The position numbers and the translations under genes were made by a program. A DNA stretch of 35,424 nucleotides, from the IMG/VR virus record IMGVR_UViG_3300024518_002913, positions 1 to 35,424 of that record. One strand, 5' to 3'. Each line of letters begins with the position of its first letter. The stretch's first letter is position 1. The notes below the pieces were generated by a model. That model saw nothing but the letters and a program-made list of their open reading frames with translations. It was not told where the DNA came from and ran no database searches. The stretch is from a virus. This document shows, piece after piece, positions 1-33,573 of this stretch.

Positions 1-111
1 AACTCTAATAGTTCCAGAATTATCTTTAAAATATGAAACTGAATTTATTTCTTTCGTTGAATGCAACTGGGTAGAATTATATCTAGTATAGCCGTTCCTT
101 GTAATTAATAC
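1..111. repeat. Terminal overlap, identical to 35314..35424 (circular or terminally redundant genome)
   Basis: Base-by-base comparison shows nt 1..111 equal nt 35314..35424; an ORF reads through the junction in frame. Confidence 0.95.
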
Positions 112-228
112 ATTTTCATCAGATGCAACATTCAAAGCATCAGCCATTTTACCTTCTTGTAAAACTTTGTAGCTTACTGGCATGTAGGGAATGTCCCACT
201 TGAATGGCTTTCTAAAAAGTTGAGGCAT
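1..228 (-). CDS. 5' (N-terminal) part of the junction-spanning tail structural protein gene (continues at 35424..33586; 651 aa on the circle)
   Basis: ATG at 228..226 sits directly after the stop of the upstream gene (229..231). It reads MPQLFRKPFKWDIPYMPVSYKVLQEGKMADALNVASDENV and continues in frame into LITRNGYTRYNSTQLHSTKEINSVSYF of the 33586..35379 ORF. Confidence 0.7.
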   Translation of the reverse strand, partial: MPQLFRKPFKWDIPYMPVSYKVLQEGKMADALNVASDENVLITRNGYTRYNSTQLHSTKEINSVSYFKDNSGTIRV

Positions 229-540
229 TTATTTCTCACCCTCTCTTTTGACTGACTTCTTGTTTTTCCTTTTAACACGCGGGTTTACTTGTGATTTAGG
301 GTCATACATTTTTGCATAAAGAAAGGCGGCGTAGTTTTTACCCTTCCTTATCTTTTCTTTACTTGCTAAATCATCGCCCTTTTTCTTTTTCTTTCTTTCT
401 TTTTCTCGTTTCTCTATTTCTTTTTTGGCGTCTTGCAAATCTTTATCCTGAGATTGATCCAAGTCTAAATATTCTTTATCTCTGTTTTGCATTTCATTTC
501 TTGGCTTGCCTTTAATTGTAAATTTCTTTTTCTTTGCCAT
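229..540 (-). CDS. Lys-rich small protein (103 aa), hypothetical, in the tail module
   Basis: ORF track 229..585. The likely start is the internal ATG at 540 (MAKKKKFTIKGK), 1 nt after the stop of the upstream gene (542..544). Confidence 0.5.
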   Translation of the reverse strand: MAKKKKFTIKGKPRNEMQNRDKEYLDLDQSQDKDLQDAKKEIEKREKERKKKKKGDDLASKEKIRKGKNYAAFLYAKMYDPKSQVNPRVKRKNKKSVKREGEK

Positions 541-541: not shown

Positions 542-1597
542 TTATACCTCGTACCCTGCATAATCGCCAACAACGTCCCGAACAACTGACGGTCTGCCTC
601 TGTTTCTACCTAATACCTTTTCAAGTTCTTTCTTTTCTTCGTCATAATTTTTTTGTTTGCTTTCTGCCCCTGACCTATCCCTAAACTCGTACATTTTCCA
701 TAGCATCCCTTTCATCCATGCGGCTTCACATTGTATAGGTAAATCCATTTCTCTTTCAATATTATAAAACATTTCATGCGGGCGTCTGTGTACTGAATAA
801 AGCATCGTCCTAGCTTTATCTGTTGCGCCTGATGATACTTGTGGATAAATAGAAATTCCTTCTAATCCGTGCCAGTCAAATGATCGTGGCGTCCCTTCAC
901 TACTTGCAACATCGTATCGTCTTGTTCTGTTATTGTTTCTTCTATCTAAAAATACCGCGCTTTCTGGGAAATACATGTGGTCAGATGAAATTTGATCTAT
1001 TTCTGACGAACTTGGCGGCGTTGGTGCTGTGCTTGCTGGTACTGCCGCAACGCTTGCCGTAGTATCTCCATTATTCGTTATTTGTGAAGAATAATAAGCG
1101 GGACCGTAAACCGTTTCACCCGCTGCTAATTCTGCAACATATACATTTCTATAAATTATTTTTGGCTCGTAAGAATCATCGCCGTCAAATGTGGGAATAT
1201 CTGTTACAAGTAAAGTTAGGTTTCCAGAAGTCATTAGTACGCCTGTTCCCGCTGGGCTTGGCTCTGATTCCATATATTTTTTTGTATCTGGGTCATAGAT
1301 AACAAAAGTTATATAGGGCTTATAAGTATTAGTTTCCGTTAATGCTCCACCGCCGCCCAACGCTGTACTTGGAGCCGCTGGAATATCTATTGCAAGGTCT
1401 ATAAATTCCTGACTTGCTGGTATTAGTTTTTTAAGCTTAAAATTAAAAGCGTCATAAGGTAAACTTTTTACAATATCATTTTGAATTTCATTACCCCAAC
1501 GAATAGCCCGCGCTAACATAGTTGAGTTTGTCGATGAACTCCAGCCTTCATCTAAGGCTCTATCTAGCATTTTTTTACAATTCCAATACCTAGACAT
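542..1597 (-). CDS. Putative virion structural protein (adaptor or tail, 351 aa) with an Ala/Pro/Ser-rich linker
   Basis: ORF track 542..1630. ATG at 1597 is preceded by AAGGGG and overlaps the upstream stop by 8 nt (ATGTCTAG). The call rests on position between capsid and tail genes; no motif recognised. Confidence 0.5.
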   Translation of the reverse strand: MSRYWNCKKMLDRALDEGWSSSTNSTMLARAIRWGNEIQNDIVKSLPYDAFNFKLKKLIPASQEFIDLAIDIPAAPSTALGGGGALTETNTYKPYITFVIYDPDTKKYMESEPSPAGTGVLMTSGNLTLLVTDIPTFDGDDSYEPKIIYRNVYVAELAAGETVYGPAYYSSQITNNGDTTASVAAVPASTAPTPPSSSEIDQISSDHMYFPESAVFLDRRNNNRTRRYDVASSEGTPRSFDWHGLEGISIYPQVSSGATDKARTMLYSVHRRPHEMFYNIEREMDLPIQCEAAWMKGMLWKMYEFRDRSGAESKQKNYDEEKKELEKVLGRNRGRPSVVRDVVGDYAGYEV

Positions 1598-2663
1598 TTT
1601 TAGCCCCTTCTGTTCTGTAGCATAAGGCAAGAATGAAAAGCATTGCCGTGCCTGTTATATGCAAATTAAAATGCGTTAATGATGAAACAAAAGAACCTAG
1701 TAGCATAGCAATTAAAAGCGGGTTAGTTTGTTTATAGAATTTTTTAATATAGATTGTAACAATTCCTAATCCCAATAAACCGTAATGATAGAACAATTCT
1801 ATATATTCATTATGGGCTTGGTTTGCTTTCATCCCGTAGGTTTTCCATAGCAGGGAGTTTTCAATTATGTAGGCTGTTCCGCTTCCTATAAATAGATTAT
1901 TTAGTCCCGTTCTATGAATTATTAAGTTCCATATTTGAATTCTGTGATTTTCTACTAATCCCGACTTAACAAGGGCGATAGTTCCCAAAACCCCCACAAT
2001 AGGAAGAATCCAGTAGAATTTTGCTATATTCTTGAAAAAGTAGGCTCCTAGGATCGCTCCTAAGACGATAAAAGGAGTCGTTGCACTAGTGAAGTACAGG
2101 CAAATTAAAATCACCGGAGTAAAAAAGATCCACTTCTTCCTGAAAAATACAGGTAAGGAAATTGCTAGGTATGACCCTAAACTTCCCTGATTATCAAAAG
2201 TACCAACTGATCCAAACGGCTGGTAGTTAACTTTTACATCCATTGAATAAAAATCAAATAAATATATATTGAAATTCGGTAACACCGAAAAAATACACTG
2301 GATTATACAAGAAATAGCTATCCCATTTAATATTATATATAAGTAATCTTTCTTCACTGACCTAAACTGTAGGCCAAGGGCAAGCGTTGCCGCTATTGAA
2401 AAGAATTGAGATATATAGGTGTATGCTGTAAAATTTACAGTGTTAAAAAAAACTAATGAAAGAAAGGCTCCGAAGATTATTCTTTCTTTTGGGTTTGTTT
2501 CTGAAAAAAAACCAAATAAAAAAACTGATATAAAAACTAAAAATAGAAATCCCATTTCATGGGCGTGACGAGGCAAAGCTATTTGTTTACCAGCCTTAAG
2601 AAAAAGGGGGAGTGCGATAAACGCCCCTCCCCAAAAAAAATGAAACATTTTTTCTTTATTCAT
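1590..2663 (-). CDS. O-antigen ligase/polymerase family (Wzy_C-like) polytopic inner-membrane protein
   Basis: 357 aa and hydrophobic throughout, about 10 or more predicted TM segments. Family-like motifs: GTFDNQGSLGSYLAISLPVFF, TSATTPFIVLGAILG, NHRIQIWN...LFIGSGTAYI, ANQAHNEYIELFYHYGLLGLG (the aHNxyL...G..G signature). Confidence 0.7.
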   Translation of the reverse strand: MNKEKMFHFFWGGAFIALPLFLKAGKQIALPRHAHEMGFLFLVFISVFLFGFFSETNPKERIIFGAFLSLVFFNTVNFTAYTYISQFFSIAATLALGLQFRSVKKDYLYIILNGIAISCIIQCIFSVLPNFNIYLFDFYSMDVKVNYQPFGSVGTFDNQGSLGSYLAISLPVFFRKKWIFFTPVILICLYFTSATTPFIVLGAILGAYFFKNIAKFYWILPIVGVLGTIALVKSGLVENHRIQIWNLIIHRTGLNNLFIGSGTAYIIENSLLWKTYGMKANQAHNEYIELFYHYGLLGLGIVTIYIKKFYKQTNPLLIAMLLGSFVSSLTHFNLHITGTAMLFILALCYRTEGAKNV

Positions 2664-2665
2664 CG

Positions 2666-3187
2666 CTATTTGAGCAAAATCATAAAGTCAACGTCAGCAC
2701 TTGCGCTTTCATCGTCTAAGAAAACACCTACCGGAATGTCAGTAGCGACTACTGAGCCGAAAGCTTCTGATTGAATTTGACCCGCTGTATTTTCTGAAAC
2801 ATAACCTTTATCTCCTGCACTTGCAGCATCATTAGTCACGTCAAAAACTACGCCGGTATTAATCCCGTATGTTTGACATCTACAATTTTCATCATCTGCA
2901 CAGTCAGAGGCGTCTGCCTTTGCAATAATACAAAGTGGTTGCGCCCCTGCACTTGTTGAAGTCGTTGAACTATAGCCGTCATCTTCTGTGGTTTCTTGAA
3001 CCATTAACCAGCCGTCACTAACACCGCCGCCGCTGGTATTCTTGACGTAAATGTACCATTTTTCAATAGAACCGCTAACCGCTGTTCCCTTTGAATCTTG
3101 TTGAAAACTTCTTCCTACTGGTCCAATATCCGCAAAGGAAATTGAAGCAAATAAAGAAAGAAGAATTACTAAAAATAAATTTTTCAT
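2666..3187 (-). CDS. Exported protein (173 aa precursor) with a Sec signal peptide, unknown function
   Basis: ATG at 3187 is preceded by AAGGGG. The N-terminus MKNLFLVILLSLFASISFA|DIG looks like an SPase I site. The mature part is Gly/Ser/Thr/Asp-rich with 4 Cys. It lies 2 nt upstream of the ligase-like gene. Confidence 0.6.
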   Translation of the reverse strand: MKNLFLVILLSLFASISFADIGPVGRSFQQDSKGTAVSGSIEKWYIYVKNTSGGGVSDGWLMVQETTEDDGYSSTTSTSAGAQPLCIIAKADASDCADDENCRCQTYGINTGVVFDVTNDAASAGDKGYVSENTAGQIQSEAFGSVVATDIPVGVFLDDESASADVDFMILLK

Positions 3188-3201: not shown

Positions 3202-4230
3202 TTATCCTGTTATACCTGTTAAAGTTGAATTGTACTTTAATTCTGAACAAGCAATATTTCCATATAGAAAAATACGTTCCAGAATCGCATCAACTGTCTC
3301 AAGGTCTTTGATTGATTGAACTCTCATATTGTGGTCTTTATGAACGTGCAGCTTAGTATGCCCTTCATCAATATGGTAAAGTTGTTGAGCCGTAATATCT
3401 TGGGAAGTGAAATAATCAATCCCGTTATATACTAATGACTGCCCTTTGTTACCTGCTCCACTTAACGAATTGATTTCGTTTTGTGTTCTTTGATTACCTT
3501 GCAGTAAACCTTTAATAGCAGTAAACACACCAACTGTAGTCGCGCCCATAGTTGCGCCACCTTGGCCAGCATAAAAAGTTGCATCAAAAGATGCGTCTAA
3601 CAATGCCTTAGTCAAAACACCACCAGCCGCTGTAACAGTAGCCGCCCATGTACTTAAGTCAGTAGAACTAATTCCACCGTAAGAACCTGAACTTTGAACA
3701 AAAGAATCAAAACCGTCAAATTGATCGGTATCATTATTTTGTGAAGTTGCGGAACCATCAGAAAGAATACCTTTCAGCATTCTCTGTGCCATTGCACCTT
3801 TAGCAACTTGAACCTTTCCAGCAACTAATTTTAGCTGACCATGTTTACTTGCGTTTTTCGCAATGTCTAGTTTATCAACTACTACTGGCTCTTCAACTTG
3901 TCTCCACGAATGGAAAGAAGCACTTAGATGCTCAACGGTTTGTAATGAAAGTGCTGAACCTTTAGAATAAAATCCCCCTGGAGTCCCCGTTTCATCAATG
4001 ATTGCTAACGGACATTTAATCCTATCGCCGCCATCTTCTAATTCTTGTCTCTCTCTGAATCTCTGTAAAAGATAATCAGAATTAAATACACCCATAGTTA
4101 ATTTGTCTTTAATCAAGTCGTGGGTAATCGCTTGAAGCTCATTAAATGTGTAAACCCCTCTACTATCTTTCAGTAAGTAGGCAACTGAAAAATATAAAAA
4201 GGAAAACAGATTCTTTAAAATTGTTTTCAT
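3202..4230 (-). CDS. Major capsid protein (putative)
   Basis: 342 aa, immediately after the scaffold-like gene, with a strong RBS (AGGAGGG). Size, position and Gly/Ala/Thr-rich core are typical of HK97-fold capsid proteins. Confidence 0.6.
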   Translation of the reverse strand: MKTILKNLFSFLYFSVAYLLKDSRGVYTFNELQAITHDLIKDKLTMGVFNSDYLLQRFRERQELEDGGDRIKCPLAIIDETGTPGGFYSKGSALSLQTVEHLSASFHSWRQVEEPVVVDKLDIAKNASKHGQLKLVAGKVQVAKGAMAQRMLKGILSDGSATSQNNDTDQFDGFDSFVQSSGSYGGISSTDLSTWAATVTAAGGVLTKALLDASFDATFYAGQGGATMGATTVGVFTAIKGLLQGNQRTQNEINSLSGAGNKGQSLVYNGIDYFTSQDITAQQLYHIDEGHTKLHVHKDHNMRVQSIKDLETVDAILERIFLYGNIACSELKYNSTLTGITG

Positions 4231-4242: not shown

Positions 4243-5325
4243 CTAGGCTGCGTTGTCTCTTCCTGCTGCAATCCTCTTGATTGCATCGAACATTGATTCA
4301 TGTTTTTTCGGTTGCCCGTCATCAACTTCATCTTGAACGGCATTTTGTCCGTTTGTTCTAAGGTTAGATTTCGCCTTGGTTTCTATTAGTTTTTTGTGGG
4401 ATTCCATTGCTTTAGTTATAGATTCGCCATTAACAGCTTGGAATGCTTGCTTAACGTCTAGCTTGCCCCCTGCTGCTTTGTACGATTCTAAAACTTTATC
4501 GTAATTTACAGAAACGCCTAAAGTTTTTAATTTAGCTCCCCATTGTTTCTGAATGTTTGAGATACCATCATCGTATTTTTTTTGTTCAAATTGAAATTCT
4601 TTCTCTTCATCTTTTTTAATGATCTGATTAATCTTTTCATCTTGTGCCGCGATGGTTTCTTTCAATCCGTTAATCATTGGGTTATCTTGAGATGCAAAAT
4701 GCGTTTCCATAGCATTGTTATACCTTCCTTCCAGTTCCTCGAAGTATTCGGGGTCTGATTCTTTTAGGTCTGCCATTAGATTTTGCATAACTTGATTACT
4801 TAATATCTCATTCTGGACGCTATCCTTATAAGTATTAAATTCCTCAATTTCTGAATTAAAAGCTTCATCTTTTTTTGTGGATTCAGCTTCCCAATTTTTC
4901 ACAGCTTCTGCGTGTTCCTGTGTTTTAACGGTGTAGTCAGATTCTTTTGAAAGCATTTCTTTAATTTCATCGTCATCTTTAAACTCTACTGGAGTCCCTT
5001 TTCGGGTTATTCCTAGTGAGTTTACTAAATCGGAGAGGGATTTTTCTTTACCTTCTTCATCTTCTAACTTTAACGAATCTAGTTGTTCTTCTAAGGTTTT
5101 ATCCTTATCTTCCCCTTCTTCTTCGTTACTTTCTTTAGCTTCTACGTTTTCAATGTCCGAATCGGTTGCATCGTCTGCGCTTTCACTTTCTTGGTCGCTT
5201 AAAAAATTGTCGTACTTATCCACTAAATCAACTGGTTGACTTTCGGAATCCTCGCCGATCTCTCCGCGATGGTTGTTCAAGGATAAAAGTAAAAAATTTA
5301 AAAAACTGTTTTTCTTCTTGCTCAT
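4243..5325 (-). CDS. Scaffolding protein (putative)
   Basis: 360 aa, very acidic and coiled-coil-like (Glu/Asp/Lys-rich), located between portal and capsid genes. Confidence 0.55.
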   Translation of the reverse strand: MSKKKNSFLNFLLLSLNNHRGEIGEDSESQPVDLVDKYDNFLSDQESESADDATDSDIENVEAKESNEEEGEDKDKTLEEQLDSLKLEDEEGKEKSLSDLVNSLGITRKGTPVEFKDDDEIKEMLSKESDYTVKTQEHAEAVKNWEAESTKKDEAFNSEIEEFNTYKDSVQNEILSNQVMQNLMADLKESDPEYFEELEGRYNNAMETHFASQDNPMINGLKETIAAQDEKINQIIKKDEEKEFQFEQKKYDDGISNIQKQWGAKLKTLGVSVNYDKVLESYKAAGGKLDVKQAFQAVNGESITKAMESHKKLIETKAKSNLRTNGQNAVQDEVDDGQPKKHESMFDAIKRIAAGRDNAA

Positions 5326-5331: not shown

Positions 5332-7347
5332 TTAACCTTGTGGTTGCTCAGGTTGGTCTTGATCGACTCCTGATTGTTGAACCATTATCTGTTCTGCTTG
5401 TTCTGCTTCCTCCTCTGTCATTGAATCTGGGTCATGCTCATATCGCATCATTAGATTTTGTATTTGAAGCTCTTGCATGATCTGTGCTTTCTGTTGACTA
5501 TCATCAACCATTTTTAATAACTGATTTTTCTTTGGAATATCTGTTACTGTTAGAAATGTAACTAAATCAATTTGCTGATTCGCTAACATGGCATACATTA
5601 AACCAGTAAAGGCTTCCTTGTCGGTCCCTGCCATTGTATCCTCGTCCATTTCAATATTCATTTCTATATCTTGCATATCTAATGGATTATAAAGAATTTG
5701 TTGGCTAAATCCGTCTACTTCTTCAATGCCTATTTTTTTCTCTGTTGTCCAAAATTGCGTGATGTTTCCGTAAGTTAATCGCCCCATTCTTGCTAGTGAA
5801 TAATGCATATTTGTTCTAATTTTTAATCTGTGCCTTCCGATTGCTCTTAATTGTAATCTCTCAACCGTTACCCCAGAAGCATTAGGGCTTGGCATTTTAC
5901 CTTGAGATACTTCGTTATTCCCTGAAATATCTTCAATGTTTCTTGCTCTACCATCTGCAAATTGTGAGAGTTGCGGGCTAATCTGTCCGGGCTCAACGTG
6001 TTTTATTTCCCCATCATCTGGTAAAATAAAGATTAACCCGTCATCGTTCGTTATATCTTCCTTCTTTAATCCTGATGCTACGTTGGCATATACCCAAGGA
6101 TTAGCTACCCTTAGAAGTCCTTTATGTTCTTTAAACGTCATTTCTGAAATCATTCTCTGCGAATCAATGCAGTTTTCGATTTCATTAAAGCCGTAGATTG
6201 TTGCATCCTTGTAACAATAAAATGGGGTCAGTGGGATTTCCCCATGCTCATACTCATTGGCTTCATCTGAAACTACCAATTTTCCTACGGTCTTAATTAC
6301 TCTCCAATTATCTTTGAATTTAAACATTTTAGATTGTGGATTTTCATTGTAATAAACTAAATGCTCCTCCATGTGGTTATCTAAAATTTTAAGAGTTAGC
6401 ATCAATGGTCCAAAATCTGCGTTTGGATCAATTTCACTTAATTGCCCGATATATTCCGCAACATCTTCAAAAGGCGTTTCTGGCGGTAATCCAAAAGGCT
6501 GTAAAATCATCCCTCTTTCTCTAAGGTGTTGAATATTATGCGCCATGTGGTTTTGAGTTTTCTTAATATCTGGAGCGCCACCGCCCATTAATGCTTGCGC
6601 TTCTTTTTCTAATTCCTCGGCTGTGACTTCCTCTGGAATTGTTACCATCGTGTAATCTTTTACATATGTGTGACATAATTGTAACGTATCTTCATCAGAA
6701 TATTTATTCGGACGCCTTCTCTTTCCTCGTCCTCTTATGTCTACCGTTTCCCGCCCTTCGTTGTCTATTGGTCCCTCTTGAACATCTTTCCCTTTCATCT
6801 CTTTTAATTTTTTTGCATACTTTGGAAATGTCATCATTAACCATTGGCGTGACCTCGGAACAATAAACCTAGCTTTCTTAGCTTGTTCAATTAACATGCA
6901 AGCGCCGTCTACCATTACATCTTCCCAATGAACGACTTCACGGCAAATTTCACCATCTCCATTTTTTGCATTTGCATCAAAAAATTCATGTACCCAGCCA
7001 TTTCCACCGATTAAAGATTGCCTAACCAATACAGGCATCATAACGGCTAGATTTTGTTGCTTATTAACATATCCAATAGCTTTCCCCATATTATCGGCTT
7101 GCGCTTTGTAAGCTGGATCATCCGAGGTAGCCGTCATTGACGGTAAGCCATCCGTTAGAATTGGCACTTCCGTTTCGATAGCTTTAAACAAAAGATTTTC
7201 TACTGGCTTGTATTGAGTATCATTTTCCCAAACATCGCCATAGTAAGCTCTTTCATGCTCTCGGTTTTTGGTAAAGAATTGATTAGCGTATTTAGTTAAG
7301 TCAGTTTTTACTTTCTCAACTATCTTGATAGGTTTTTCTTCTTGCAT
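5332..7347 (-). CDS. Portal protein
   Basis: 671 aa, first gene of the late operon, followed by scaffold and capsid genes, with an acidic/Gln-rich C-terminal tail typical of portals. Confidence 0.75.
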   Translation of the reverse strand: MQEEKPIKIVEKVKTDLTKYANQFFTKNREHERAYYGDVWENDTQYKPVENLLFKAIETEVPILTDGLPSMTATSDDPAYKAQADNMGKAIGYVNKQQNLAVMMPVLVRQSLIGGNGWVHEFFDANAKNGDGEICREVVHWEDVMVDGACMLIEQAKKARFIVPRSRQWLMMTFPKYAKKLKEMKGKDVQEGPIDNEGRETVDIRGRGKRRRPNKYSDEDTLQLCHTYVKDYTMVTIPEEVTAEELEKEAQALMGGGAPDIKKTQNHMAHNIQHLRERGMILQPFGLPPETPFEDVAEYIGQLSEIDPNADFGPLMLTLKILDNHMEEHLVYYNENPQSKMFKFKDNWRVIKTVGKLVVSDEANEYEHGEIPLTPFYCYKDATIYGFNEIENCIDSQRMISEMTFKEHKGLLRVANPWVYANVASGLKKEDITNDDGLIFILPDDGEIKHVEPGQISPQLSQFADGRARNIEDISGNNEVSQGKMPSPNASGVTVERLQLRAIGRHRLKIRTNMHYSLARMGRLTYGNITQFWTTEKKIGIEEVDGFSQQILYNPLDMQDIEMNIEMDEDTMAGTDKEAFTGLMYAMLANQQIDLVTFLTVTDIPKKNQLLKMVDDSQQKAQIMQELQIQNLMMRYEHDPDSMTEEEAEQAEQIMVQQSGVDQDQPEQPQG

Positions 7348-7443
7348 TGTTCCAAGATAATCCTTTTTTCCATTTATTCCAGTGTACTTGGGAATGCTCC
7401 AATAATTGTGGTAAAAGAATTGCTTTTCTGTTTAACTGAAAAA

Positions 7444-7869
7444 ATGTCCTATAGATTAAAATGCCAAAACAAAAATTGTAGCCATGAGTTTTTGCGGTAC
7501 TGGCCTAAAGACGAATACGAAACGCTTCAATACAATACGGTTAATGGTGAATATAAAGGTATAGCTTGTTTTGATTGCGGCTTCCCTAAAATGGTCGTGA
7601 TGAAATCAAAGCAAGTGGCAGATGATGGCTTCAAGGCTGGCTTTCAAAGAAATATAATGAAATACTGCAACACTTATGCGGAATATAAGGCACATTTAAA
7701 AAATATGGGATTAATAGAAATTGGCTACGAAAAAACAGAAGATAGGAAGTTTTCTGAGCCTTTCTTCACTCCTGATCTATGCAGACAATTAAACCAAAAA
7801 CATGGAATATCTCTTAGCCCGCTAGAAATGGAAGGGCTTAACAAAGAAATTAACGAGGAATCAGCATGA
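7444..7869 (+). CDS. Zinc-ribbon protein (141 aa), hypothetical
   Basis: ATG at 7444 (MSYRLKCQNKNCSHEF...CFDCGFPK) gives a CxxxxC...CxxC ribbon. The track's start at 7342 adds an unlikely hydrophobic extension overlapping the portal start. Confidence 0.5.
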   Translation: MSYRLKCQNKNCSHEFLRYWPKDEYETLQYNTVNGEYKGIACFDCGFPKMVVMKSKQVADDGFKAGFQRNIMKYCNTYAEYKAHLKNMGLIEIGYEKTEDRKFSEPFFTPDLCRQLNQKHGISLSPLEMEGLNKEINEESA

Positions 7870-8714
7870 AAAAGTTTTTACTATCAGTTATATTATTACT
7901 TTTATCAGTTAATTCTTACGCCATACCGGAAGTTGATGCTGTTAATCAATTATTAAATGGGAGTGGATTAAATATAGCGCGTGGATTATCGCCAAAAACT
8001 TCCTTCGTTCATAAATTCGGTAGTGCAAGTGATTTCGATATAGATGCGGGAATTATAACGGTTTGGGACGGTGCAAACGATGCACTAGGTCTGGCCTTCG
8101 CTTATACTTATTCTGCTACGGCTGACATTACACAAATAACATCAAGTAGCGCATCTGATACTGAAATCATAGAGGTACAGGGTTTAAATTCTGCGTATGA
8201 GCTTGTAATCCAAAATGTAACCTTAACGGGCACTACTGCTGCAATTCTTGAAACTCCGTTAATTAGAGTTTTTAGAATGAAAAATATTGGCTCAGCTGAT
8301 ATGGTAGGAACTGTCTATCTTACTGTTTCCGGTGCTGGCTATGCTGCTGCTGGCGTTCCTGATACTGCCAATGAAATTAGGGCAATGTTAAGTATCGGTG
8401 AAAATCAAACTTTAATGGCGCTCTATACCTGTCCGGCTAATAAAACCTGTTATCTTTGCTCTTTCTATGCATCAACATCAAGCGCAATTAAAACAAGTGC
8501 CCATATCATTAGACTTAAAGTCAGACCGTTTGGTCAAGTTTTTCAGACTAAGCACGTTGCTTCTATTATTGCCAATGGTGTTGGTCACTTTATTCATCCC
8601 TATATGGTTCCTGAAAAAATTAGCGCCAAGTCGGATATTGAAATGAGAGCTAATACAGACTCAAATGTGGCTGGTGTTTCTGCTGGTTTTGACTTGATCG
8701 TTATTGACGATTAA
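7866..8714 (+). CDS. Exported beta-rich protein (282 aa) with a Sec signal peptide, unknown function
   Basis: MKKFLLSVILLLLSVNSYA|IPE signal peptide. ATGA overlap with the upstream gene. Transcribed opposite to all neighbouring genes. Confidence 0.6.
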   Translation: MKKFLLSVILLLLSVNSYAIPEVDAVNQLLNGSGLNIARGLSPKTSFVHKFGSASDFDIDAGIITVWDGANDALGLAFAYTYSATADITQITSSSASDTEIIEVQGLNSAYELVIQNVTLTGTTAAILETPLIRVFRMKNIGSADMVGTVYLTVSGAGYAAAGVPDTANEIRAMLSIGENQTLMALYTCPANKTCYLCSFYASTSSAIKTSAHIIRLKVRPFGQVFQTKHVASIIANGVGHFIHPYMVPEKISAKSDIEMRANTDSNVAGVSAGFDLIVIDD

Positions 8715-10502: not shown

Positions 10503-10802
10503 TTAATAGTTCCTTGTTTCTGTTGCTCTGGCTAGTTTTTCTTTTAATTCTTTGTTTTCTGCTCTTAGTTTTTCTATGTCTGGCGTTGTCACTTCCAAAA
10601 AAAGTTTTTGTGCCTCGGTTGAGCAAAAAGAATCAAATATTTGCATAACCTGTCTTGTTAGTTTGAATGGGTCTCTCGGCGTTAGCAATACAGCTTTAAA
10701 GTTTCCGTCTTTTATTTTCTCCATAGCTTCTTTTTGATAAGGGTGCATCTTAAACCCATTATCCGAACATTCCCCCTGATTTTTTGCTGTCGTAAGTGTC
10801 AT
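10503..10802 (-). CDS. Hypothetical protein (99 aa)
   Basis: ORF track 10503..10832. ATG at 10802 is preceded by GAGGGAATATT. It overlaps the terL 3' end by 44 nt. Confidence 0.45.
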   Translation of the reverse strand: MTLTTAKNQGECSDNGFKMHPYQKEAMEKIKDGNFKAVLLTPRDPFKLTRQVMQIFDSFCSTEAQKLFLEVTTPDIEKLRAENKELKEKLARATETRNY

Positions 10803-13244: not shown

Positions 13245-13505
13245 TTATAGGTCCAAGTAAGCAATGATAGTTTTTTGAATGGCAACGTACTCGGTCCGGC
13301 TTGCTGTCGTTGAGCCTGTCGCGTTTGTGATTGTTAGCGTGTTGCCTGACAGGGTTAGCGTTACCGTAATTCCTCCACTTGTAAAAATCAAGGTCGTAAT
13401 AAAGCTATCTGATTGTAAAATTTTCATAGCTTCTTTTACTGTCGCCTCTGTTAAATCTTCTTCTGCTGTTACTGCGATTGATGGGCTTACTTTTGTAATC
13501 GTCAA
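13245..13505 (-). CDS. Hypothetical protein (86 aa), Thr-rich
   Basis: ORF track; overlaps the HNH gene stop by 4 nt. Confidence 0.45.
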   Translation of the reverse strand: MTITKVSPSIAVTAEEDLTEATVKEAMKILQSDSFITTLIFTSGGITVTLTLSGNTLTITNATGSTTASRTEYVAIQKTIIAYLDL

Positions 13506-13936
13506 GATTGACTCCTTTTTTTAAGTTTATATTTTTTTAAATTTCTTCTTGCACATATTCTACAGGCTCTTGCGCCCGTCTTTTCTATTTTTAAATTTTC
13601 ACCAGAAAAAGGATGCCCCCACTTACAATGCGTTTTCGCTAAGTTTTCGTGCCTTCCTCTTTTCATTTTGTCTTTTACGTTATCTGCCCTTGTTCCTACT
13701 CGGAGATGATAAGGGTTGCAACAAGGCGGGTTATCGCATGAATGAAGTATGCAATCATCTTTCTTTATGTCTTTACCTTTAAAAAAGAAATATGCAAACC
13801 TGTGGGCAAGTTGGGCTTTTCCGTCTATAAATATTCTTCCGTGCCCAAAGTGACCCTTTCCAGCCTTCCACTCCCAGCAATTATTTAAAGGGTCTTTTGG
13901 AATATTAACCTTGTCCCAGAATCTTTTCATAGCCAA
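13502..13936 (-). CDS. HNH endonuclease
   Basis: CWEWKAGK..GHGRI...AHRFAYFF...ILHSCDNPPCCNPYHLRVGTRADNVKDK is a classic phage HNH_3 pattern. Confidence 0.8.
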   Translation of the reverse strand: MAMKRFWDKVNIPKDPLNNCWEWKAGKGHFGHGRIFIDGKAQLAHRFAYFFFKGKDIKKDDCILHSCDNPPCCNPYHLRVGTRADNVKDKMKRGRHENLAKTHCKWGHPFSGENLKIEKTGARACRICARRNLKKYKLKKRSQS

Positions 13937-24442: not shown

Positions 24443-24463
24443 GCTAGGCTATAAACCTAGCCT
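24443..24463. terminator. Hairpin between the convergent early (+) and late (-) operons, a candidate bidirectional terminator
   Basis: GGCTAGG (24443..24449) pairs with CCTAGCC (24457..24463), flanked by A-rich and T-rich runs. It overlaps the last codons of the 24449..24769 gene. Confidence 0.5.
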
Positions 24464-24769
24464 TTTCTTGTGAACGCACCTAAAATCTCTTAGACCTATT
24501 CTTGTCTCTTTATTTGCTAGGTCATAGACATCAACTTGAAAGTTTTTCTTTTTGCACTCGTCTTTGTTCCAGAATTTCCCTTTTTTACAATAAGGAAAAA
24601 ATAGGATTCCCGCTCTATCTCTTTCAATAACTAAGATTCTGTTATCTTCCGCATACTGTCTTATTTTAGAGGCGCAAGCCGTTAGGGTAACACCTATAAA
24701 TACTCCAATAAGAACGGCTTTAAAATAACGTAAAAAACTCTTAATTTTATATAGTGTCTCTAATTTCAT
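24449..24769 (-). CDS. Outer-membrane lipoprotein, o-spanin-like
   Basis: Lipobox VTLTA|C after a hydrophobic segment. Last gene of the lysis cassette, with a 4-nt overlap with the upstream gene. Confidence 0.45.
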   Translation of the reverse strand: MKLETLYKIKSFLRYFKAVLIGVFIGVTLTACASKIRQYAEDNRILVIERDRAGILFFPYCKKGKFWNKDECKKKNFQVDVYDLANKETRIGLRDFRCVHKKRLGL

Positions 24770-25038
24770 TTTGCTGTACCCTCAAGTAGTTTTTTATTTG
24801 CGAATGCTTTAAATTTTTCATCAAGCTCTTTTGTCTTTTGTAATAGGTCAATTATTCGCCCTTGGTCCTGTCCTAAGTGAACATCTGGATCATCGGGGTA
24901 TTTTATTTCCTTGTTACTTTCTAACCATAAATCGTGTTTGGTTTTCTCGACTTCATCGGCCCAGCCAGTGCCTAGCTTGTGAATCCAAATCTTGCCCACA
25001 AGCTGCAAAGTTCCGAGTAGTGCTAACGCTAATTCCAT
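24766..25038 (-). CDS. i-spanin-like protein (N-terminal TM plus coiled coil, 90 aa)
   Basis: ATG at 25038 overlaps the holin stop (TAATG). MELALALLGTLQLVGKIWI is followed by a charged helical region. Confidence 0.4.
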   Translation of the reverse strand: MELALALLGTLQLVGKIWIHKLGTGWADEVEKTKHDLWLESNKEIKYPDDPDVHLGQDQGRIIDLLQKTKELDEKFKAFANKKLLEGTAK

Positions 25039-25217
25039 TATTCTATCTTGGCAACAGTATCTTTTCTTAGAAAAATAGCAACTAAAGACCATACAACGCC
25101 GAAAACTGCTTCTGTAAGCACTGGCGCTGATTTAGGCATGACAGCTATAACTACTCCACCAATACCCATAAATAAGTTAAACCAAATTGTCCTAGACTCG
25201 TACCATTTCTTCTCCAT
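25038..25217 (-). CDS. Holin (59 aa, two TM segments)
   Basis: Below the track cutoff. RBS AAGGA. MEKKWYESRTIWFNLFMGIGGVVIAVMPKSAPVLTEAVFGVVWSLVAIFLRKDTVAKIE has two hydrophobic helices and a charged C-terminus. It sits next to the endolysin gene. Confidence 0.5.
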   Translation of the reverse strand: MEKKWYESRTIWFNLFMGIGGVVIAVMPKSAPVLTEAVFGVVWSLVAIFLRKDTVAKIE

Positions 25218-25287
25218 AATTTATCCTTTTGTTTGGGATCTTTTACTTGACCAGGATAGTCCGGTATTGATCCGTTTATGTTTACTT

Positions 25288-25701
25288 TTATTCTAAACCA
25301 AAAATCTTCTTTGTTCCAATGTCATCTAGCGTTATACCTCTTTTAACTTGAACGTGTCCATGGTTGCCCCTGCCAATATTATGAATAATCATAACCGTTT
25401 TAGGCTTATTAATCGGTCCTGTAGCCCATGCTTGAAATACGCTATTCACCTTAAGAGCTAGATCATTTGAACGCTGCTCAGGCCATCCTCGTAAGCTGAA
25501 ATCAAGCATTCTTCCCTCTTCATGCCCCTTTGATACCCTATCCGGTAAATATTCCGTTATTGACGTTATATCTAGCGGCAAGCTGTGAAGCTCTGCGTAA
25601 CCTACTATATAATGTAAAACTATACCTAGTGCAAATTGCATTTCTTGTAATTCCTTCGGTTGAACATCTGGGCTTTTTAGCGTGAATTGTTTTTTAGTCA
25701 T
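25288..25701 (-). CDS. Peptidase M15-family endolysin (zinc D-Ala-D-Ala carboxypeptidase / L-Ala-D-Glu peptidase fold)
   Basis: GHEEGRMLD matches the HxxGxAxD zinc motif, and a later GNHGHVQV supplies the third ligand. Confidence 0.6.
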   Translation of the reverse strand: MTKKQFTLKSPDVQPKELQEMQFALGIVLHYIVGYAELHSLPLDITSITEYLPDRVSKGHEEGRMLDFSLRGWPEQRSNDLALKVNSVFQAWATGPINKPKTVMIIHNIGRGNHGHVQVKRGITLDDIGTKKIFGLE

Positions 25702-25891
25702 TTAACATAGTTTTGGCTTTTTCTATCCCGTCCTTGATTCTATCTTTTTTCAAATCTTTTTTCATTTTCTTGATAACCTGTATTTCATTGTAATTACTCT
25801 CGGCTTTTTCTATTCGATTTTCCCCTATAGAATCTTTCAGCCTTTTGATTCTTTTCTTTAACTCTTTTTCTCTTTTATCTAAATCATCCAT
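25694..25891 (-). CDS. Lys/Glu-rich coiled-coil hypothetical protein (65 aa)
   Basis: ORF track. Confidence 0.4.
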   Translation of the reverse strand: MDDLDKREKELKKRIKRLKDSIGENRIEKAESNYNEIQVIKKMKKDLKKDRIKDGIEKAKTMLND

Positions 25892-25893
25892 AG

Positions 25894-26187
25894 CTACCTT
25901 TTAATTAAAATTAATATGGTCTTAATGTCACGGTCTATTCCGTCAAGCTTACGATATACTCGAACCATACCTTTTTCACTATCCTTTGACTTGCTTTCAA
26001 GAATTGAGATTCTTTTATCGTTGCTTCTTGATAGCGCTCCCTTGGAATCTTTCTTATATCCGCTGAAAATACTGTTAGAATAAGCTCCCAAGCCGCTAAC
26101 TATTGCAAGAATAATACTAGCAGCACCTATTTTTTTCCCAGCTTGGGTAAAGGTTAGCTTAATTTCCTCTTTTCTTTTCTCGGTCAT
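25894..26187 (-). CDS. Single-TM hypothetical protein (97 aa)
   Basis: TM segment IGAASIILAIVSGLGAY; ATGA overlap with the 1119-aa gene. Confidence 0.45.
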   Translation of the reverse strand: MTEKRKEEIKLTFTQAGKKIGAASIILAIVSGLGAYSNSIFSGYKKDSKGALSRSNDKRISILESKSKDSEKGMVRVYRKLDGIDRDIKTILILIKR

Positions 26188-32092: not shown

Positions 32093-32446
32093 TTATCTAT
32101 TGAAATAATCCGCTACGTTTTCAAGAAATTTTTGTTTCTTTACAGGATCGGAAAGATCGGCTTTGTCGAATTTCCTTAGAAATTTGTAAGACTTTTTCCT
32201 GTCCTTGTTTTTATTTTCCTTTTTTTGCCTTTCTGTGACTTCTTTGCCTTCGAGTTCAATAAGCCTTGCAAGGTTTTTAGCTTGTCTTATTTTTTTTAAA
32301 GACGTGTCAAGAGTATCTGGGTCCCCCTCATCTTCTAAAATCTTTTCAATATTTATGACATTACCGATACGCCGATTAAACTCTACCTGTGTAATAGCGT
32401 TGACTGAAAAAGAAACTAGAAAACTAATTAATAATAATATTTTCAT
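32093..32446 (-). CDS. Exported small charged protein (117 aa) with a Sec signal peptide
   Basis: MKILLLISFLVSFSVNA|ITQ, followed by a Lys/Glu-rich helical region. Confidence 0.5.
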   Translation of the reverse strand: MKILLLISFLVSFSVNAITQVEFNRRIGNVINIEKILEDEGDPDTLDTSLKKIRQAKNLARLIELEGKEVTERQKKENKNKDRKKSYKFLRKFDKADLSDPVKKQKFLENVADYFNR

Positions 32447-32454: not shown

Positions 32455-33573
32455 CTAATTATAGATATGTGGAAAGTAGTAGCATGATAAATTTTGACCA
32501 CTTTTTCTTCCGCTAACTGTCTGGCTAATATTAGCAGTGCCAGCCGAAACATTTTGCTGCACTTGTATCGTTACGTTTGTTTGATCTGTGGCGTAGGTAA
32601 ATTCACCCGTTAAAATACCTACCCCATTGTCCGCCGCCGAGCCGTCGTATTGTACAACTGCAGAAGCTCCCGTAGTTCCATCGTAAAATCTTATTCCTTG
32701 ATCCCCTGCCGTGCTAACAGAAATCATACCAGTTAAAAAGCACCTTACTGTTCCTGCTGGAATAAAACTCATAACAATTTTTATTTTAGCTCCGTCTGTT
32801 CCTGTTGTCCCGCCATCTGCTGCGCAATCTGTTGCATTAACGCCACCGTAACAAGTGCGCGCAGTATCTCCGCAGTCGTCATCATCTGGAAAATTAGTCC
32901 ATGAAGTCCCTGAGCCTATCCACTGACAATTAGTGGTCTCTGCCCATGTGACACTAGCCAAAAGCCCTGCCCCATAAGGTGCTTTATAAACTCCATTAGC
33001 CCAACTTTTAACAGTATTTTGATTTATATCGCTCGATCCATCATTAAAAAATCTACCTAGGATTTTATTTCCTGAAGAATCATAACCATCTGGATCCGGT
33101 GCTGTAGTAGTAATTAATCCCGTTAGCGTTGTTCCCGTTGATCCCGTTTTTACATAAACATAATAATCTGTACTTGCTGCCTCTGCTGAGCAACCCGTGC
33201 AGCCCCATGTGACAGTGTTTGCAGTAGTGGTTTTAACAAAATTTCCATTAACCGACATTATGCAATCGCCCATAGATATGGTTGCGGCGTCACTCCAAGA
33301 TATAGCGCATCCATCCCTAACGCCATTAAGTAAAGCGGCGTAATCTGTTGTATTTAAAGCCCCATCCTCAAGAGTACCGTCAACTAGACACCCTGCATCA
33401 AGTGAGCCAGCAAGGCGGTCATAGATCGTACTATGATCCCCATTATACTTGGTTGATGTTAGTACCGTATTAGCAGAGTTTGCCGTGTATGTGTCACTGG
33501 TACACGTTCCCGCATAAACCTGACAACCAGCTGAGCAAGCCAACATTAATAAAGCTAAAATTTTCTTTTTCAT
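32455..33573 (-). CDS. Fibre / receptor-binding-like protein with an N-terminal signal peptide, unusually Cys-rich
   Basis: MKKKILALLMLACSAGCQVYA|GT. Mature part is Gly/Thr/Ser/Asp-rich and beta-like (YYVYVKTGSTGTTLTGLITTTAPD, KILGRFFNDGSS) with about 15 or more Cys. Confidence 0.5.
   Translation of the reverse strand: MKKKILALLMLACSAGCQVYAGTCTSDTYTANSANTVLTSTKYNGDHSTIYDRLAGSLDAGCLVDGTLEDGALNTTDYAALLNGVRDGCAISWSDAATISMGDCIMSVNGNFVKTTTANTVTWGCTGCSAEAASTDYYVYVKTGSTGTTLTGLITTTAPDPDGYDSSGNKILGRFFNDGSSDINQNTVKSWANGVYKAPYGAGLLASVTWAETTNCQWIGSGTSWTNFPDDDDCGDTARTCYGGVNATDCAADGGTTGTDGAKIKIVMSFIPAGTVRCFLTGMISVSTAGDQGIRFYDGTTGASAVVQYDGSAADNGVGILTGEFTYATDQTNVTIQVQQNVSAGTANISQTVSGRKSGQNLSCYYFPHIYN

What the first reader, a model, noticed from the sequence alone, without database searches (positions are those of the whole stretch)
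1590..3187. O-antigen ligase/polymerase-family membrane protein and a secreted partner wired into the capsid-tail operon
Between the major capsid gene and the tail genes lie a Sec-exported 173-aa protein (2666..3187) and a polytopic Wzy_C-like protein of about 10 TM segments (1590..2663, with the ANQAHNEYIELFYHYGLLGLG signature). Both are translationally coupled to their neighbours, with a 2-nt gap upstream and an 8-nt overlap downstream. They should therefore be made at late-gene levels, not as an independently regulated moron. Phage Wzy-type enzymes are known from temperate seroconverting phages such as Pseudomonas D3. A member embedded in the morphogenesis operon of a phage with no visible integrase is a different arrangement. 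The Wzy_C superfamily also includes protein O-oligosaccharyltransferases (PglL/PilO). This raises the speculative possibility of a phage-directed periplasmic glycosylation or envelope-remodelling module acting on the exported proteins encoded in the same operon.
Basis: partly seen in the sequence, partly recalled or inferred. Interest (0 to 1): 0.85.

Follow-up and report, generated by a model that had tools for sequence, protein, structure and literature searches.

The report
Phage glycan transferase beside exported decoration-protein
An uncultured phage carries, between its capsid and tail genes, a membrane enzyme of the O-antigen-ligase type. It sits next to a capsid-decoration protein that unexpectedly has an export signal, which suggests that some phages sugar-coat virion surface proteins outside the cytoplasm.

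Summary
Genes 2666-3187 and 1590-2663 (minus strand) lie between the major capsid gene and the adaptor and tail genes, with a 2-nt gap and an 8-nt overlap.

The 357-aa protein scores below Pfam's Wzy_C threshold on its own. It belongs to a family of more than 1,300 clusters. Half of the sampled members hit Wzy_C. Its AlphaFold model (pLDDT 94) matches only WaaL. The Arg and His that align with the essential WaaL/PglL residues are invariant.

The "secreted partner" has the fold of phage capsid cement (gpD-like) proteins. All its full-length homologues nevertheless carry a Sec-type signal peptide, and four Cys are nearly invariant.

In 24 of 24 related podophage loci with a complete upstream gene, the gene before the transferase encodes a signal-peptide protein. 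In some relatives a PMT_2 glycosyltransferase fills the same slot. One relative also encodes a polyprenyl-phosphate sugar pathway.

The window is a complete 35.3-kb genome with no integrase.

My best reading (about 45%) is periplasmic O-glycosylation of exported virion-surface proteins that join particles at lysis. LPS remodelling is the main rival. I found no published description.

The parts
1590..2663 (-). 357-aa, 12-helix inner-membrane protein of the Wzy_C / WaaL-PglL (GT-C_B) fold; the putative periplasm-facing polyprenyl-PP-glycan transferase
   Evidence: Pfam Wzy_C E=0.0027, below threshold. 50 of 106 homologues hit Wzy_C, best 1.5e-14. AF2 pLDDT 93.7, pTM 0.92. Foldseek top hit WaaL 7tpg_B, prob 1.00, TM 0.58.
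1809..1961 (-). Large periplasmic loop (residues 235-285) carrying invariant R241 (1941-1943) and H284 (1812-1814)
   Evidence: Invariant in 106 of 106 sequences. hhalign places R241 on E. coli WaaL R288 and H284 on H338. These residues are essential in WaaL and conserved in PglL (PMC3643930).
1764..1826 (-). ANQAHNEYIELFYHYGLLGLG motif (residues 280-300); family consensus H-[NS]-E-[WY]-[LV]-x5-[FY]-G-x2-G
   Evidence: Column profile of the 106-sequence alignment.
2130..2204 (-). Family motif G-[TS]-L-G-N-x-N...A-I-S-L-P-F-F-F-R-K-K-W (residues 154-178); G154 invariant, N158 near-invariant
2666..3187 (-). 173-aa protein with a capsid cement/decoration (gpD-like) fold and an N-terminal Sec-type signal peptide
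   Evidence: AF2 pLDDT 90.1. Foldseek hits: Pam3 capsid chain G (E 5e-5), HFTV1, TW1 capsid-stabilising protein, phiCD508, Sf11, XM1, phi29 gp8.5 base, T1, lambda gpD/SHP. 36 homologues.
3131..3187 (-). Predicted signal peptide, residues 1-19 (MKNLFLVILLSLFASISFA); predicted cleavage before the conserved DIGPVGRS
   Evidence: Three-part n/h/c layout in 35 of 36 homologues. The sequence varies while the hydrophobicity is conserved. This is a heuristic; no SignalP was available.
2876..2971 (-). Conserved Ser/Thr-rich loop (res 73-84, S-x-T-T-S-T-x-A-G-A-x-P) and four near-invariant Cys (C86, C96, C102, C104)
   Evidence: Alignment A5. The role as glycosylation site and disulfides is inference only.
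3202..4230 (-). Major capsid protein
   Evidence: phrog_9953, 1.1e-23
4243..5325 (-). Scaffold-like acidic protein
   Evidence: Position and composition; conserved synteny
5332..7347 (-). Portal protein (P22-like)
   Evidence: PF16510, 5.4e-23; phrog_156, 7e-33
542..1597 (-). 351-aa conserved protein after the transferase gene; probably the head-tail adaptor
   Evidence: Conserved in all relatives. The positional counterpart in L008 hits SU10_adaptor weakly (E 0.0019). No direct hit for the window protein.
33586..35313 (-). C-terminal part of the ~651-aa nozzle/tail-like protein. Its first 76 codons are at 228..1, across the circular junction
   Evidence: homologues of 627-658 aa in relatives
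32455..33573 (-). 372-aa fibre/receptor-binding-like protein with a signal peptide (MKKKILALLMLACSAGCQVYA|GTCTSD)
   Evidence: weak Mtd_2nd hit, E 1e-4. Homologues in relatives carry a signal peptide, except in L020.
32093..32446 (-). 117-aa protein with a signal peptide, conserved after the fibre-like gene
7866..8714 (+). 282-aa signal-peptide protein. It is homologous to a cyanomyovirus 'virion protein' that lacks a signal peptide
   Evidence: phrog_8198, 3e-37; tblastn 30-35% identity to S-RSM4, Syn1, S-SCSM1; the S-SCSM1 homologue starts MPFKNFLWDE, with no signal peptide.
24449..26187 (-). Probable lysis cassette: holin-like gene, then a TM protein and a lipobox (LTAC) protein as a spanin-like pair. 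It suggests a diderm host
   Evidence: weak holin hit, E 0.0023. Tentative.

Best explanation
Gene 1590-2663 encodes a minimal (357 aa, 12-helix) member of the Wzy_C / WaaL-PglL glycosyltransferase superfamily. Its active site faces the periplasm. It uses an Arg (R241) to hold the pyrophosphate of an undecaprenyl-PP-linked glycan and a His (H284) as catalytic base.

It is not a moron. It is a conserved component of the head-tail module of a large clade of uncultured P22-portal-type phages.

Proposed mechanism (inferred, not shown):
1. The upstream gene product, a gpD-like capsid cement/decoration protein, is exported by Sec.
2. Its signal peptide is cut before DIGPVGRS.
3. It forms disulfides in the periplasm.
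4. The transferase O-glycosylates it, probably in the conserved Ser/Thr-rich loop, using host lipid-linked glycans. Some relatives use phage-made ones.
5. Other signal-peptide-bearing virion-type proteins of the same genome (the fibre-like 372-aa protein and the 282-aa protein) may be treated likewise.
6. These proteins meet the cytoplasmically assembled particle only when the envelope is breached at lysis.

Shown: fold, catalytic residues, gene order, signal-peptide architecture, conservation. Inferred: enzymatic activity, donor, acceptor, attachment after lysis.
For: Enzyme identity:
- 1,378 homologous clusters.
- 50 of 106 members hit Wzy_C, best 1.5e-14.
- AF2 pLDDT 93.7.
- The only meaningful PDB match is WaaL 7tpg_B.
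- R241 and H284 are invariant. They align to WaaL R288 and H338, which are essential and conserved in PglL (PMC3643930; PMC12800693).

Coupling to an exported protein:
- In 24 of 24 non-redundant podophage loci with a complete upstream gene, that gene has a signal peptide. The background rate is 55 of 763 ORFs. Stop and start codons often overlap.
- Two upstream families with no detectable sequence similarity occupy this position: the 173-aa cement-like family and a ~295-aa family.

Same slot, different enzyme:
- In L047 and L049 a 540-546-aa PMT_2 GT-C protein replaces it (27.7 bits, above the 26.1 cut-off).

Donor supply:
- Relative L007 encodes Bac_transf (1e-35), a DegT aminotransferase (3e-103), an epimerase/dehydratase and a methyltransferase beside its capsid module.

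Partner:
- Cement/decoration fold with four near-invariant Cys.

Precedent:
- O-oligosaccharyltransferase genes usually sit next to, and are co-oriented with, their acceptor gene (PMC3643930).
Against: - No biochemical evidence exists. No glycan, acceptor or donor has been identified.
- Both Wzy_C (WaaL) and PMT_2 (ArnT) families also contain lipid A/LPS-modifying enzymes. The slot replacement therefore fits LPS modification equally well.
- The PglL-specific motif PF15864 is absent from all 106 members.
- Relatives L030-L035 keep the signal-peptide protein but show no membrane transferase in the fetched stretch. The signal peptide therefore does not depend on the phage enzyme.
- A cement protein kept away from capsids until lysis is unprecedented. 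It would be unavailable during packaging.
- Signal peptides were judged by a heuristic, not by a trained predictor.
- The ~295-aa family has no demonstrated virion role.
Confidence: 0.45

Rival explanations
1. The enzyme is an LPS or envelope-glycan ligase/polymerase (WaaL- or Wzy-like). It remodels the host surface late in infection. This could mask or destroy the receptor so that progeny are not trapped on debris, or exclude superinfecting phages. The neighbouring exported protein would be unrelated to its chemistry or act as an accessory factor.
For: The best structural match is WaaL itself. The catalytic Arg and His are shared with ligases. The PMT_2 family that replaces it in L047/L049 includes ArnT-type lipid A modifiers (family knowledge). 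No PglL-specific motif is present. A cellular relative lies in a polysaccharide locus (L025). In L004 a family member sits away from any signal-peptide gene.
Against: This does not explain the strict, often overlapping adjacency to a signal-peptide gene in 24 of 24 loci across two upstream families with no detectable similarity. It also does not explain placement inside the head-tail module, or why several virion-type proteins of the same genome carry signal peptides. Known phage O-antigen modifiers are accessory genes of temperate phages. This genome has no integrase.
Confidence: 0.3
2. The protein keeps the WaaL fold but does not transfer glycans. It might bind or sequester Und-PP-linked intermediates to perturb wall synthesis and time lysis. 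It might instead act as a membrane dock or chaperone for the exported virion-type proteins.
For: It is very small for the family (357 aa, ~50-residue periplasmic loop). No equivalent of the third conserved Arg (E. coli R215) was identified. In L030/L035 lysis enzymes occupy the same slot.
Against: Invariance of exactly the catalytic Arg and His across 106 diverged sequences (about 20% identity) argues for retained chemistry. The replacement is another bona fide glycosyltransferase family. The genome has what looks like its own separate lysis cassette.
Confidence: 0.1
3. It is an ordinary seroconversion-type moron (as with the Wzy of phage D3) that happens to lie in the late operon of this one phage.
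For: Phage-borne Wzy-type genes are known from temperate phages (general knowledge; PMC13228068 was listed but not read).
Against: The same position is conserved in every relative examined over MCP identities down to about 33%. This is a complete genome with no integrase. There is no match to any isolated phage.
Confidence: 0.03

Closest known systems
WaaL O-antigen ligase (Cupriavidus metallidurans, PDB 7TPG; E. coli K-12 WaaL)
   Same: 12-helix GT-C_B fold; best and only confident structural match. The periplasmic-loop Arg and the His of the H-N-E motif align with R288 and H338.
   Different: About 60 residues shorter, with a much smaller periplasmic loop. About 13% identity. Encoded in a phage head-tail module, not an LPS core locus. 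No evidence that lipid A-core is the acceptor.
PglL / PilO (TfpO) / PglS / TfpM protein O-oligosaccharyltransferases with adjacent acceptor genes
   Same: Wzy_C core with the same Arg/His. The gene lies immediately downstream of, and co-oriented with, a gene for an exported protein, as with pilA-pilO and comP-pglL (PMC3643930). [quoted passage not shown]
   Different: No PglL_A motif (PF15864; 0 of 106). No large C-terminal periplasmic domain. The neighbour is not a pilin but a capsid cement-protein homologue. Activity is untested.
gpD-like capsid cement/decoration proteins (cyanophage Pam3, TW1 gp56, HFTV1, T1, lambda gpD, P21 SHP)
   Same: Predicted fold. Size of about 150 aa when mature. 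The gene lies directly after the major capsid gene. A conserved N-terminal arm follows the predicted cleavage site.
   Different: It carries a conserved cleavable-type signal peptide and four conserved Cys. The homologues therefore appear to be exported. Nothing in the searches suggested that any cement protein in the hit list is exported.
Wzy/O-antigen modification genes of temperate seroconverting phages (e.g. Pseudomonas phage D3)
   Same: A phage-encoded member of the same broad superfamily.
   Different: Those are accessory genes of integrating phages and act on host O-antigen. This gene recurs in the morphogenesis module of a phage without an integrase.
PMT_2 / ArnT-type GT-C glycosyltransferases
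   Same: They occupy the identical genomic slot in relatives L047 and L049. They are also periplasm-facing and depend on polyprenyl-phosphate sugars.
   Different: Different family and donor type (Und-P-monosaccharide rather than Und-PP-oligosaccharide). Absent from this window.
Virion glycosylation in mycobacteriophages and chloroviruses (from my own knowledge, not checked here)
   Same: Virus-encoded enzymes that put glycans on virion surface proteins.
   Different: Those use soluble cytoplasmic glycosyltransferases. This would be en bloc transfer in the periplasm onto exported proteins.

Membership tests
Wzy_C superfamily (PF04932; WaaL/PglL/Wzy) | Match to the Pfam Wzy_C model above its gathering score | tested here: inconclusive
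   The protein itself scores 17.9 bits against a cut-off of 31.7, E=0.0027. 50 of 106 homologues match at E<=0.01, best 1.5e-14.
Wzy_C superfamily (PF04932; WaaL/PglL/Wzy) | Polytopic GT-C_B fold like WaaL | tested here: met
   AF2 pLDDT 93.7, 12 helices. Foldseek WaaL 7tpg_B prob 1.00, TM 0.58. The next hit is RodA, prob 0.35.
Wzy_C superfamily (PF04932; WaaL/PglL/Wzy) | Conserved Arg and His in the large periplasmic loop (E. coli WaaL R288, H338) | tested here: met
   R241 and H284 are invariant in 106 sequences. They align to R288 and H338 (alignment significance is low). The role of these residues is from PMC3643930.
Wzy_C superfamily (PF04932; WaaL/PglL/Wzy) | Third conserved Arg in the preceding periplasmic loop (E. 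coli R215) | tested here: inconclusive
   No further invariant periplasmic Arg. R175 (93 of 106) is predicted to be cytoplasmic. No residue-level structural superposition was available.
WaaL O-antigen ligase in the strict sense | Ligates Und-PP-O-antigen to lipid A-core; encoded in an LPS core locus | tested here: not met
   The context is a phage head-tail module in every locus. The activity itself cannot be tested with these tools.
PglL-type O-oligosaccharyltransferase | PglL_A motif (PF15864) | tested here: not met
   0 of 106 members hit it in the Pfam scan. PilO also lacks it (PMC3643930).
PglL/PilO-type O-oligosaccharyltransferase | Gene adjacent to, and co-oriented with, the gene of its exported acceptor | tested here: met
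   24 of 24 loci have a signal-peptide gene immediately upstream. In the window the gap is 2 nt.
PglL/PilO-type O-oligosaccharyltransferase | Transfers a glycan to Ser/Thr of a protein | not testable with these tools
   Needs expression and mass spectrometry.
Seroconverting-phage Wzy (D3-like) | Accessory gene of a temperate, integrase-bearing phage | tested here: not met
   Complete genome (111-nt terminal repeat). No integrase among ORFs over 170 aa. The position recurs in every relative examined.
gpD-like capsid cement/decoration proteins (the partner, 2666-3187) | Cement-protein fold, with the gene next to the major capsid gene | tested here: met
   Foldseek prob 1.00 to more than 10 independent capsid cement proteins, TM 0.45-0.57. 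The gene is 14 nt downstream of the MCP gene.
gpD-like capsid cement/decoration proteins (the partner, 2666-3187) | Cytoplasmic protein that binds capsids during or after expansion | tested here: not met
   All full-length homologues carry a Sec-type signal peptide. Capsid binding cannot be tested here.
Sec (SPase I) signal peptides | Positive n-region, 10-18-residue hydrophobic h-region, small residues at -3 and -1 | tested here: met
   35 of 36 homologues pass the heuristic, and the two with no n-region (P0171, P0183) look N-terminally truncated; P0180 lacks the run and also looks truncated. This is a heuristic only; SignalP was not available.

The most novel reading that the evidence does not exclude
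A large clade of tailed phages builds its virion in two compartments. The capsid and tail core assemble in the cytoplasm. Surface proteins (a gpD-like cement protein, fibre/receptor-binding-like and depolymerase-like proteins) are exported by Sec, oxidised and O-glycosylated in the periplasm by a phage-encoded GT-C enzyme (Wzy_C type or PMT_2 type). They attach to particles only when the envelope is breached at lysis. The result is glycan-coated virions.
Probability: 0.3. Interest if true: 0.95.

Novelty: new variant of a known kind. Interest (0 to 1): 0.8.

Why it matters
Tailed-phage virions are thought to be assembled entirely in the cytoplasm. The known cases of virion glycosylation use cytoplasmic enzymes. 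Here a widespread uncultured clade pairs a periplasm-facing glycan transferase with export-signal-bearing homologues of virion surface proteins, inside the morphogenesis module.

If the proposed pathway is real, it would be a new route of virion maturation and a new way for phages to display host-like glycans, for camouflage, stability, adhesion or host range.

It would also provide a compact (357 aa) O-oligosaccharyltransferase-like enzyme with a natural, small, well-folded acceptor. That could be useful for bioconjugate engineering.

Even under the rival reading, a late-expressed LPS-remodelling enzyme conserved across a clade of phages without integrases would be unusual.

Tried and rejected
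- PHROGs and NCBIfam gave nothing for either protein. NCBIfam on 106 family members gave only scattered weak hits.
- megablast and tblastn against 50,697 phage records found no match. Portal tblastn gave only remote hits.
- Sequence searches of the PDB found nothing, with the family profiles for the enzyme and for the partner. The adaptor-like profile gave one weak, probably spurious tail-sheath hit.
- Foldseek of the enzyme against BFVD viral models found nothing.
- The first genome-contig scan found nothing. The second found only a cellular Wzy_C gene in a Nitrospinaceae polysaccharide locus. I therefore have no prophage copy and no host clue. There are no tRNAs.
- hhalign between the 173-aa family and the ~295-aa family showed no relationship. 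BLASTP of the 173-aa protein against the window's 282-aa signal-peptide protein also showed nothing.
- I tested whether the conserved Ser/Thr columns of the ~295-aa family decay in relatives that lack the transferase. The test was uninformative because there are too few independent sequences.
- The promoter/terminator scan was no different from shuffled sequence, so it gives no evidence for or against an internal promoter.
- Five literature searches found no description of a signal-peptide-bearing decoration protein or of a Wzy_C gene in a head module.
- The moron/seroconversion reading is rejected on the comparative evidence.
Full report
**Observation.** All genes of the region are on the minus strand. 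In order they are: portal (5332-7347; P22_portal 5e-23), an acidic scaffold-like gene (4243-5325), the major capsid protein (3202-4230; phrog_9953 1e-23), a 173-aa gene (2666-3187), a 357-aa gene (1590-2663) and a 351-aa gene (542-1597).

- A 14-nt spacer containing AAGGGG lies before the ATG at 3187.
- TAG-CG-ATG lies between the 173-aa and 357-aa genes.
- ATGTCTAG is the 8-nt overlap with the next gene.

No Shine-Dalgarno sequence precedes the ATG at 2663. The enzyme is therefore probably made by coupling or re-initiation at a lower level than its neighbour. The promoter/terminator scan was no better than shuffles.

The window carries a 111-nt direct repeat at its two ends. It is thus a complete, circularly assembled genome of 35,313 bp. 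No ORF over 170 aa resembles an integrase.

**What the 357-aa protein is.** On its own it only brushes Pfam Wzy_C (E=0.0027, 17.9 bits, cut-off 31.7). It has no PHROG, NCBIfam or isolated-phage match. A word-based search found a single relative. An exhaustive HMMER search with a two-sequence profile found 1,378 clusters at E<=1e-3 and 91 at E<=1e-30, nearly all of 340-390 aa.

Of 106 aligned members (mean identity about 20%), 50 hit Wzy_C at E<=0.01, best 1.5e-14. None hits the PglL-specific model.

The invariant residues are G154, R241, H284 and G295. Near-invariant are P19, Q122, N158, W245, G260, G262 and G298.

AlphaFold2 with this alignment gives a confident model (pLDDT 93.7, pTM 0.92). 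It has 12 membrane helices and a ~50-residue loop (235-285) between helices 9 and 10. Foldseek against the PDB returns WaaL (7tpg_B; probability 1.00, TM 0.58) as the only confident match, with RodA a distant second. Nothing similar is in BFVD.

A profile-to-sequence alignment with E. coli K-12 WaaL is statistically weak. It does place R241 on R288 and H284 on H338. Those are the residues reported as essential in WaaL and conserved in PglL (R298, H349) (PMC3643930). In PglS/WaaL the arginines are proposed to hold the Und-PP pyrophosphate and the histidine to act as catalytic base (PMC12800693).

I conclude with high confidence that this is a divergent, minimal, probably active member of the WaaL/PglL superfamily. 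Which sub-type it is cannot be decided from sequence.

**What the 173-aa protein is.** It has 36 detectable homologues. All full-length ones begin with a short basic n-region and 11-18 hydrophobic residues that vary in sequence. Small residues occupy -3 and -1 (AFA, AMA, ASA). A conserved D-I-G-P-V-G-R-S follows. Four Cys (C86, C96, C102, C104) are near-invariant, as is a Ser/Thr-rich stretch (D-D-G-Y-S-V-T-T-S-T-T-A-G-A-x-P).

The AlphaFold2 model (pLDDT 90.1) matches phage capsid cement/decoration proteins at probability 1.00: cyanophage Pam3, Haloferax virus HFTV1, the TW1 capsid-stabilising protein, phiCD508, Sf11, XM1, the phi29 head-fibre base and T1. Lambda gpD and P21 SHP match more weakly, at probability about 0.3-0.7.

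The "secreted partner" is therefore a gpD-like decoration protein in the canonical position after the capsid gene, but with an export signal. I found no description of such a protein in the literature I could search.

**Comparative context.** Every relative found through the capsid protein keeps the same order (L002, L003, L013-L022; MCP 42-52% identical). That order is MCP, a signal-peptide cement-like protein of ~165-175 aa, the polytopic protein of ~360-385 aa, a 346-705-aa protein and a ~630-658-aa protein. A fibre-like protein follows in the loci that extend far enough. Stop and start codons between the first pair often overlap.

More distant family members lie in phages with P22-type portals and Phage_capsid_3 capsids (L007-L010, L037-L097). 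There the gene immediately upstream is a ~295-aa protein. It has no detectable similarity to the 173-aa family, and it too has a signal peptide.

Across 26 non-redundant loci, 24 have a complete upstream gene of the podophage type, and all 24 pass the signal-peptide heuristic. The background is 55 of 763 ORFs. These represent two upstream gene families rather than 24 independent events.

Three further observations bear on function:
- In L046, L047, L049 and L050 the slot after the ~295-aa gene holds a 540-546-aa, 8-9-TM protein. Two of these (L047, L049) were scanned and match PMT_2 (27.7 bits, above the 26.1 cut-off, for L049). PMT_2 is a different family of periplasm-facing, polyprenyl-phosphate-sugar-dependent glycosyltransferases.
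- Relative L007 encodes, just upstream of its capsid module, a phosphoglycosyl transferase (Bac_transf, 1e-35), a DegT aminotransferase (3e-103), an epimerase/dehydratase, a methyltransferase and E1-type TPP enzymes. This is a lipid-linked amino-sugar pathway reminiscent of pgl systems.
- L030-L035 keep the signal-peptide protein but carry lysis enzymes rather than a membrane transferase in the slot.

A family member also occurs in a different phage type away from any signal-peptide gene (L004). The nearest cellular relative I found sits in a polysaccharide locus of a Nitrospinaceae MAG.

**Other exported virion-type proteins.** The window encodes three more signal-peptide proteins:
- A 372-aa fibre-like protein with a weak Mtd second-domain hit.
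- A 117-aa protein that follows it.
- A 282-aa protein on the opposite strand (phrog_8198). Its cyanomyovirus homologues are annotated as virion or tail-fibre proteins, and the one I translated, from S-SCSM1, lacks a signal peptide.

In relatives, a depolymerase-like protein (L049) and the >1,000-aa tail-module proteins (L008, L009) also start with signal peptides. A lipobox protein paired with a TM protein, next to a weak holin hit, suggests spanins and hence a diderm host. This is tentative.

**Interpretation.** The data fit best a phage-encoded periplasmic glycosylation step whose substrate is the co-encoded exported protein or proteins. It is analogous to pilA-pilO/tfpO or comP-pglL, where the O-oligosaccharyltransferase gene lies next to its acceptor gene (PMC3643930).

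Because the acceptor looks like a capsid cement protein, the simplest complete model is this: exported, oxidised and glycosylated surface proteins bind the particle once lysis mixes the compartments. Decoration proteins can generally bind finished capsids (general knowledge). A cement protein that is absent during packaging would still be unusual.

The main rival is that the enzyme modifies LPS or another envelope glycan. WaaL is the best structural match. Both Wzy_C and PMT_2 families include lipid A modifiers, so the slot replacement does not discriminate. That rival leaves the invariable signal-peptide neighbour and the several exported virion-type proteins unexplained.

My estimates are about 0.45 for protein glycosylation, 0.30 for envelope-glycan modification, 0.10 for a non-transferase role and 0.03 for a moron, with the rest unknown.

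**Novelty.** The enzyme is a new, very divergent sub-family of a known superfamily. The arrangement has three unusual features:
- It recurs in every examined member of this uncultured phage clade without integrases.
- It is paired with a signal-peptide-bearing cement-protein homologue.
- It is interchangeable with a PMT_2 enzyme.

This arrangement is not described in the papers or in the phage records I could search.

**Limits of this work:**
- Signal peptides were judged heuristically.
- Fold matches have TM 0.45-0.58.
- The loci are metagenomic.
- The host is unknown.
- Nothing has been tested biochemically.

Noticed in passing
window 1-111 and 35314-35424: The two ends are an exact 111-nt direct repeat. 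The window is therefore a complete, circularly assembled genome of 35,313 bp. The ~651-aa nozzle/tail-like gene runs across the junction (228..1, then 35313..33586).
   Followed up: yes
window 229-540 (-): A 103-aa, extremely Lys/Glu-rich ORF (MAKKKKFTIKGK...) lies between the adaptor-like gene and the nozzle-like gene. It has no family match and is not obvious in relatives L003 and L002.
   Followed up: partly
window 7866-8714 (+) and 7342-7869 (+): Two genes diverge from the portal gene on the opposite strand. The 282-aa product has a signal peptide and is 30-35% identical to a protein of T4-like cyanomyoviruses annotated as a virion or tail-fibre protein; the one homologue translated (S-SCSM1) has no signal peptide. 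The 175-aa product has a Cys-rich zinc-finger-like start, conserved in L002 and L003.
   Followed up: partly
L047:12417-14039, L049:13570-15210 (also L046, L050): In these relatives the slot of the Wzy_C-like gene holds a 540-546-aa, 8-9-TM protein that matches PMT_2 in the two scanned (L047, L049). L049 has two tandem paralogues of the ~295-aa signal-peptide protein in front of it.
   Followed up: partly
L007:1-5749: A 58.9-kb relative carries a sugar pathway directly upstream of its capsid module: epimerase/dehydratase, Bac_transf phosphoglycosyl transferase, E1_dh plus Transket_pyr, DegT aminotransferase and a methyltransferase.
   Followed up: partly
L030:10365-11348, L035:12330-14122: These relatives keep the ~295-aa signal-peptide protein but have no membrane glycosyltransferase in the fetched stretch. 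The slot holds a Phage_lysozyme, a C92 amidase-like protein and small TM proteins, i.e. a lysis cassette inside the head-tail module.
   Followed up: partly
L020:12672-13532: The fibre-like protein of this relative starts directly at the conserved SNYSANSILTSS segment, without the signal peptide that its homologues in the window, L003, L015, L016 and L022 carry. L019 has a signal-peptide protein in the same position but with a divergent N-terminal segment.
   Followed up: no
L049:16099-17274; L008:12068-15820; L009:12069-15284: A depolymerase-like protein (Phage_depo_C) and the >1,000-aa tail-module proteins (Laminin_G_3 in L009) also begin with signal-peptide-like sequences.
   Followed up: no
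L004:335-1561: A 408-aa member of the same Wzy_C-like family lies in a different phage type (different portal and protease module), upstream of the terminase genes and not next to a signal-peptide gene.
   Followed up: no
window 13502-13936 (-), 22031-22480 (+): An HNH endonuclease (HNH_3, 2e-7) and a GIY-YIG endonuclease (3e-10); probable homing endonucleases in a 35-kb genome.
   Followed up: no
window 15831-16559 (-) and 10759-12411 (-): The small terminase (Terminase_2, 1e-13) lies about 3.4 kb upstream of the large terminase. Several small genes, including the HNH gene, lie between them.
   Followed up: no
window 18198-23901 (+): An early or middle block lies on the opposite strand. It contains a metallophosphoesterase (phrog_221, 3e-29), a RecT-like annealing protein (1e-21) and a weak, sub-threshold GDPD hit (20806-21531). 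GC skew flips sign across this block.
   Followed up: no
L002:12600-14708, L015:9678-11795, L019:8311-10419: In these relatives the adaptor-like protein after the transferase gene is doubled in size (702-705 aa) by an internal insertion that is rich in Ser, Thr, Asn and Gly.
   Followed up: no
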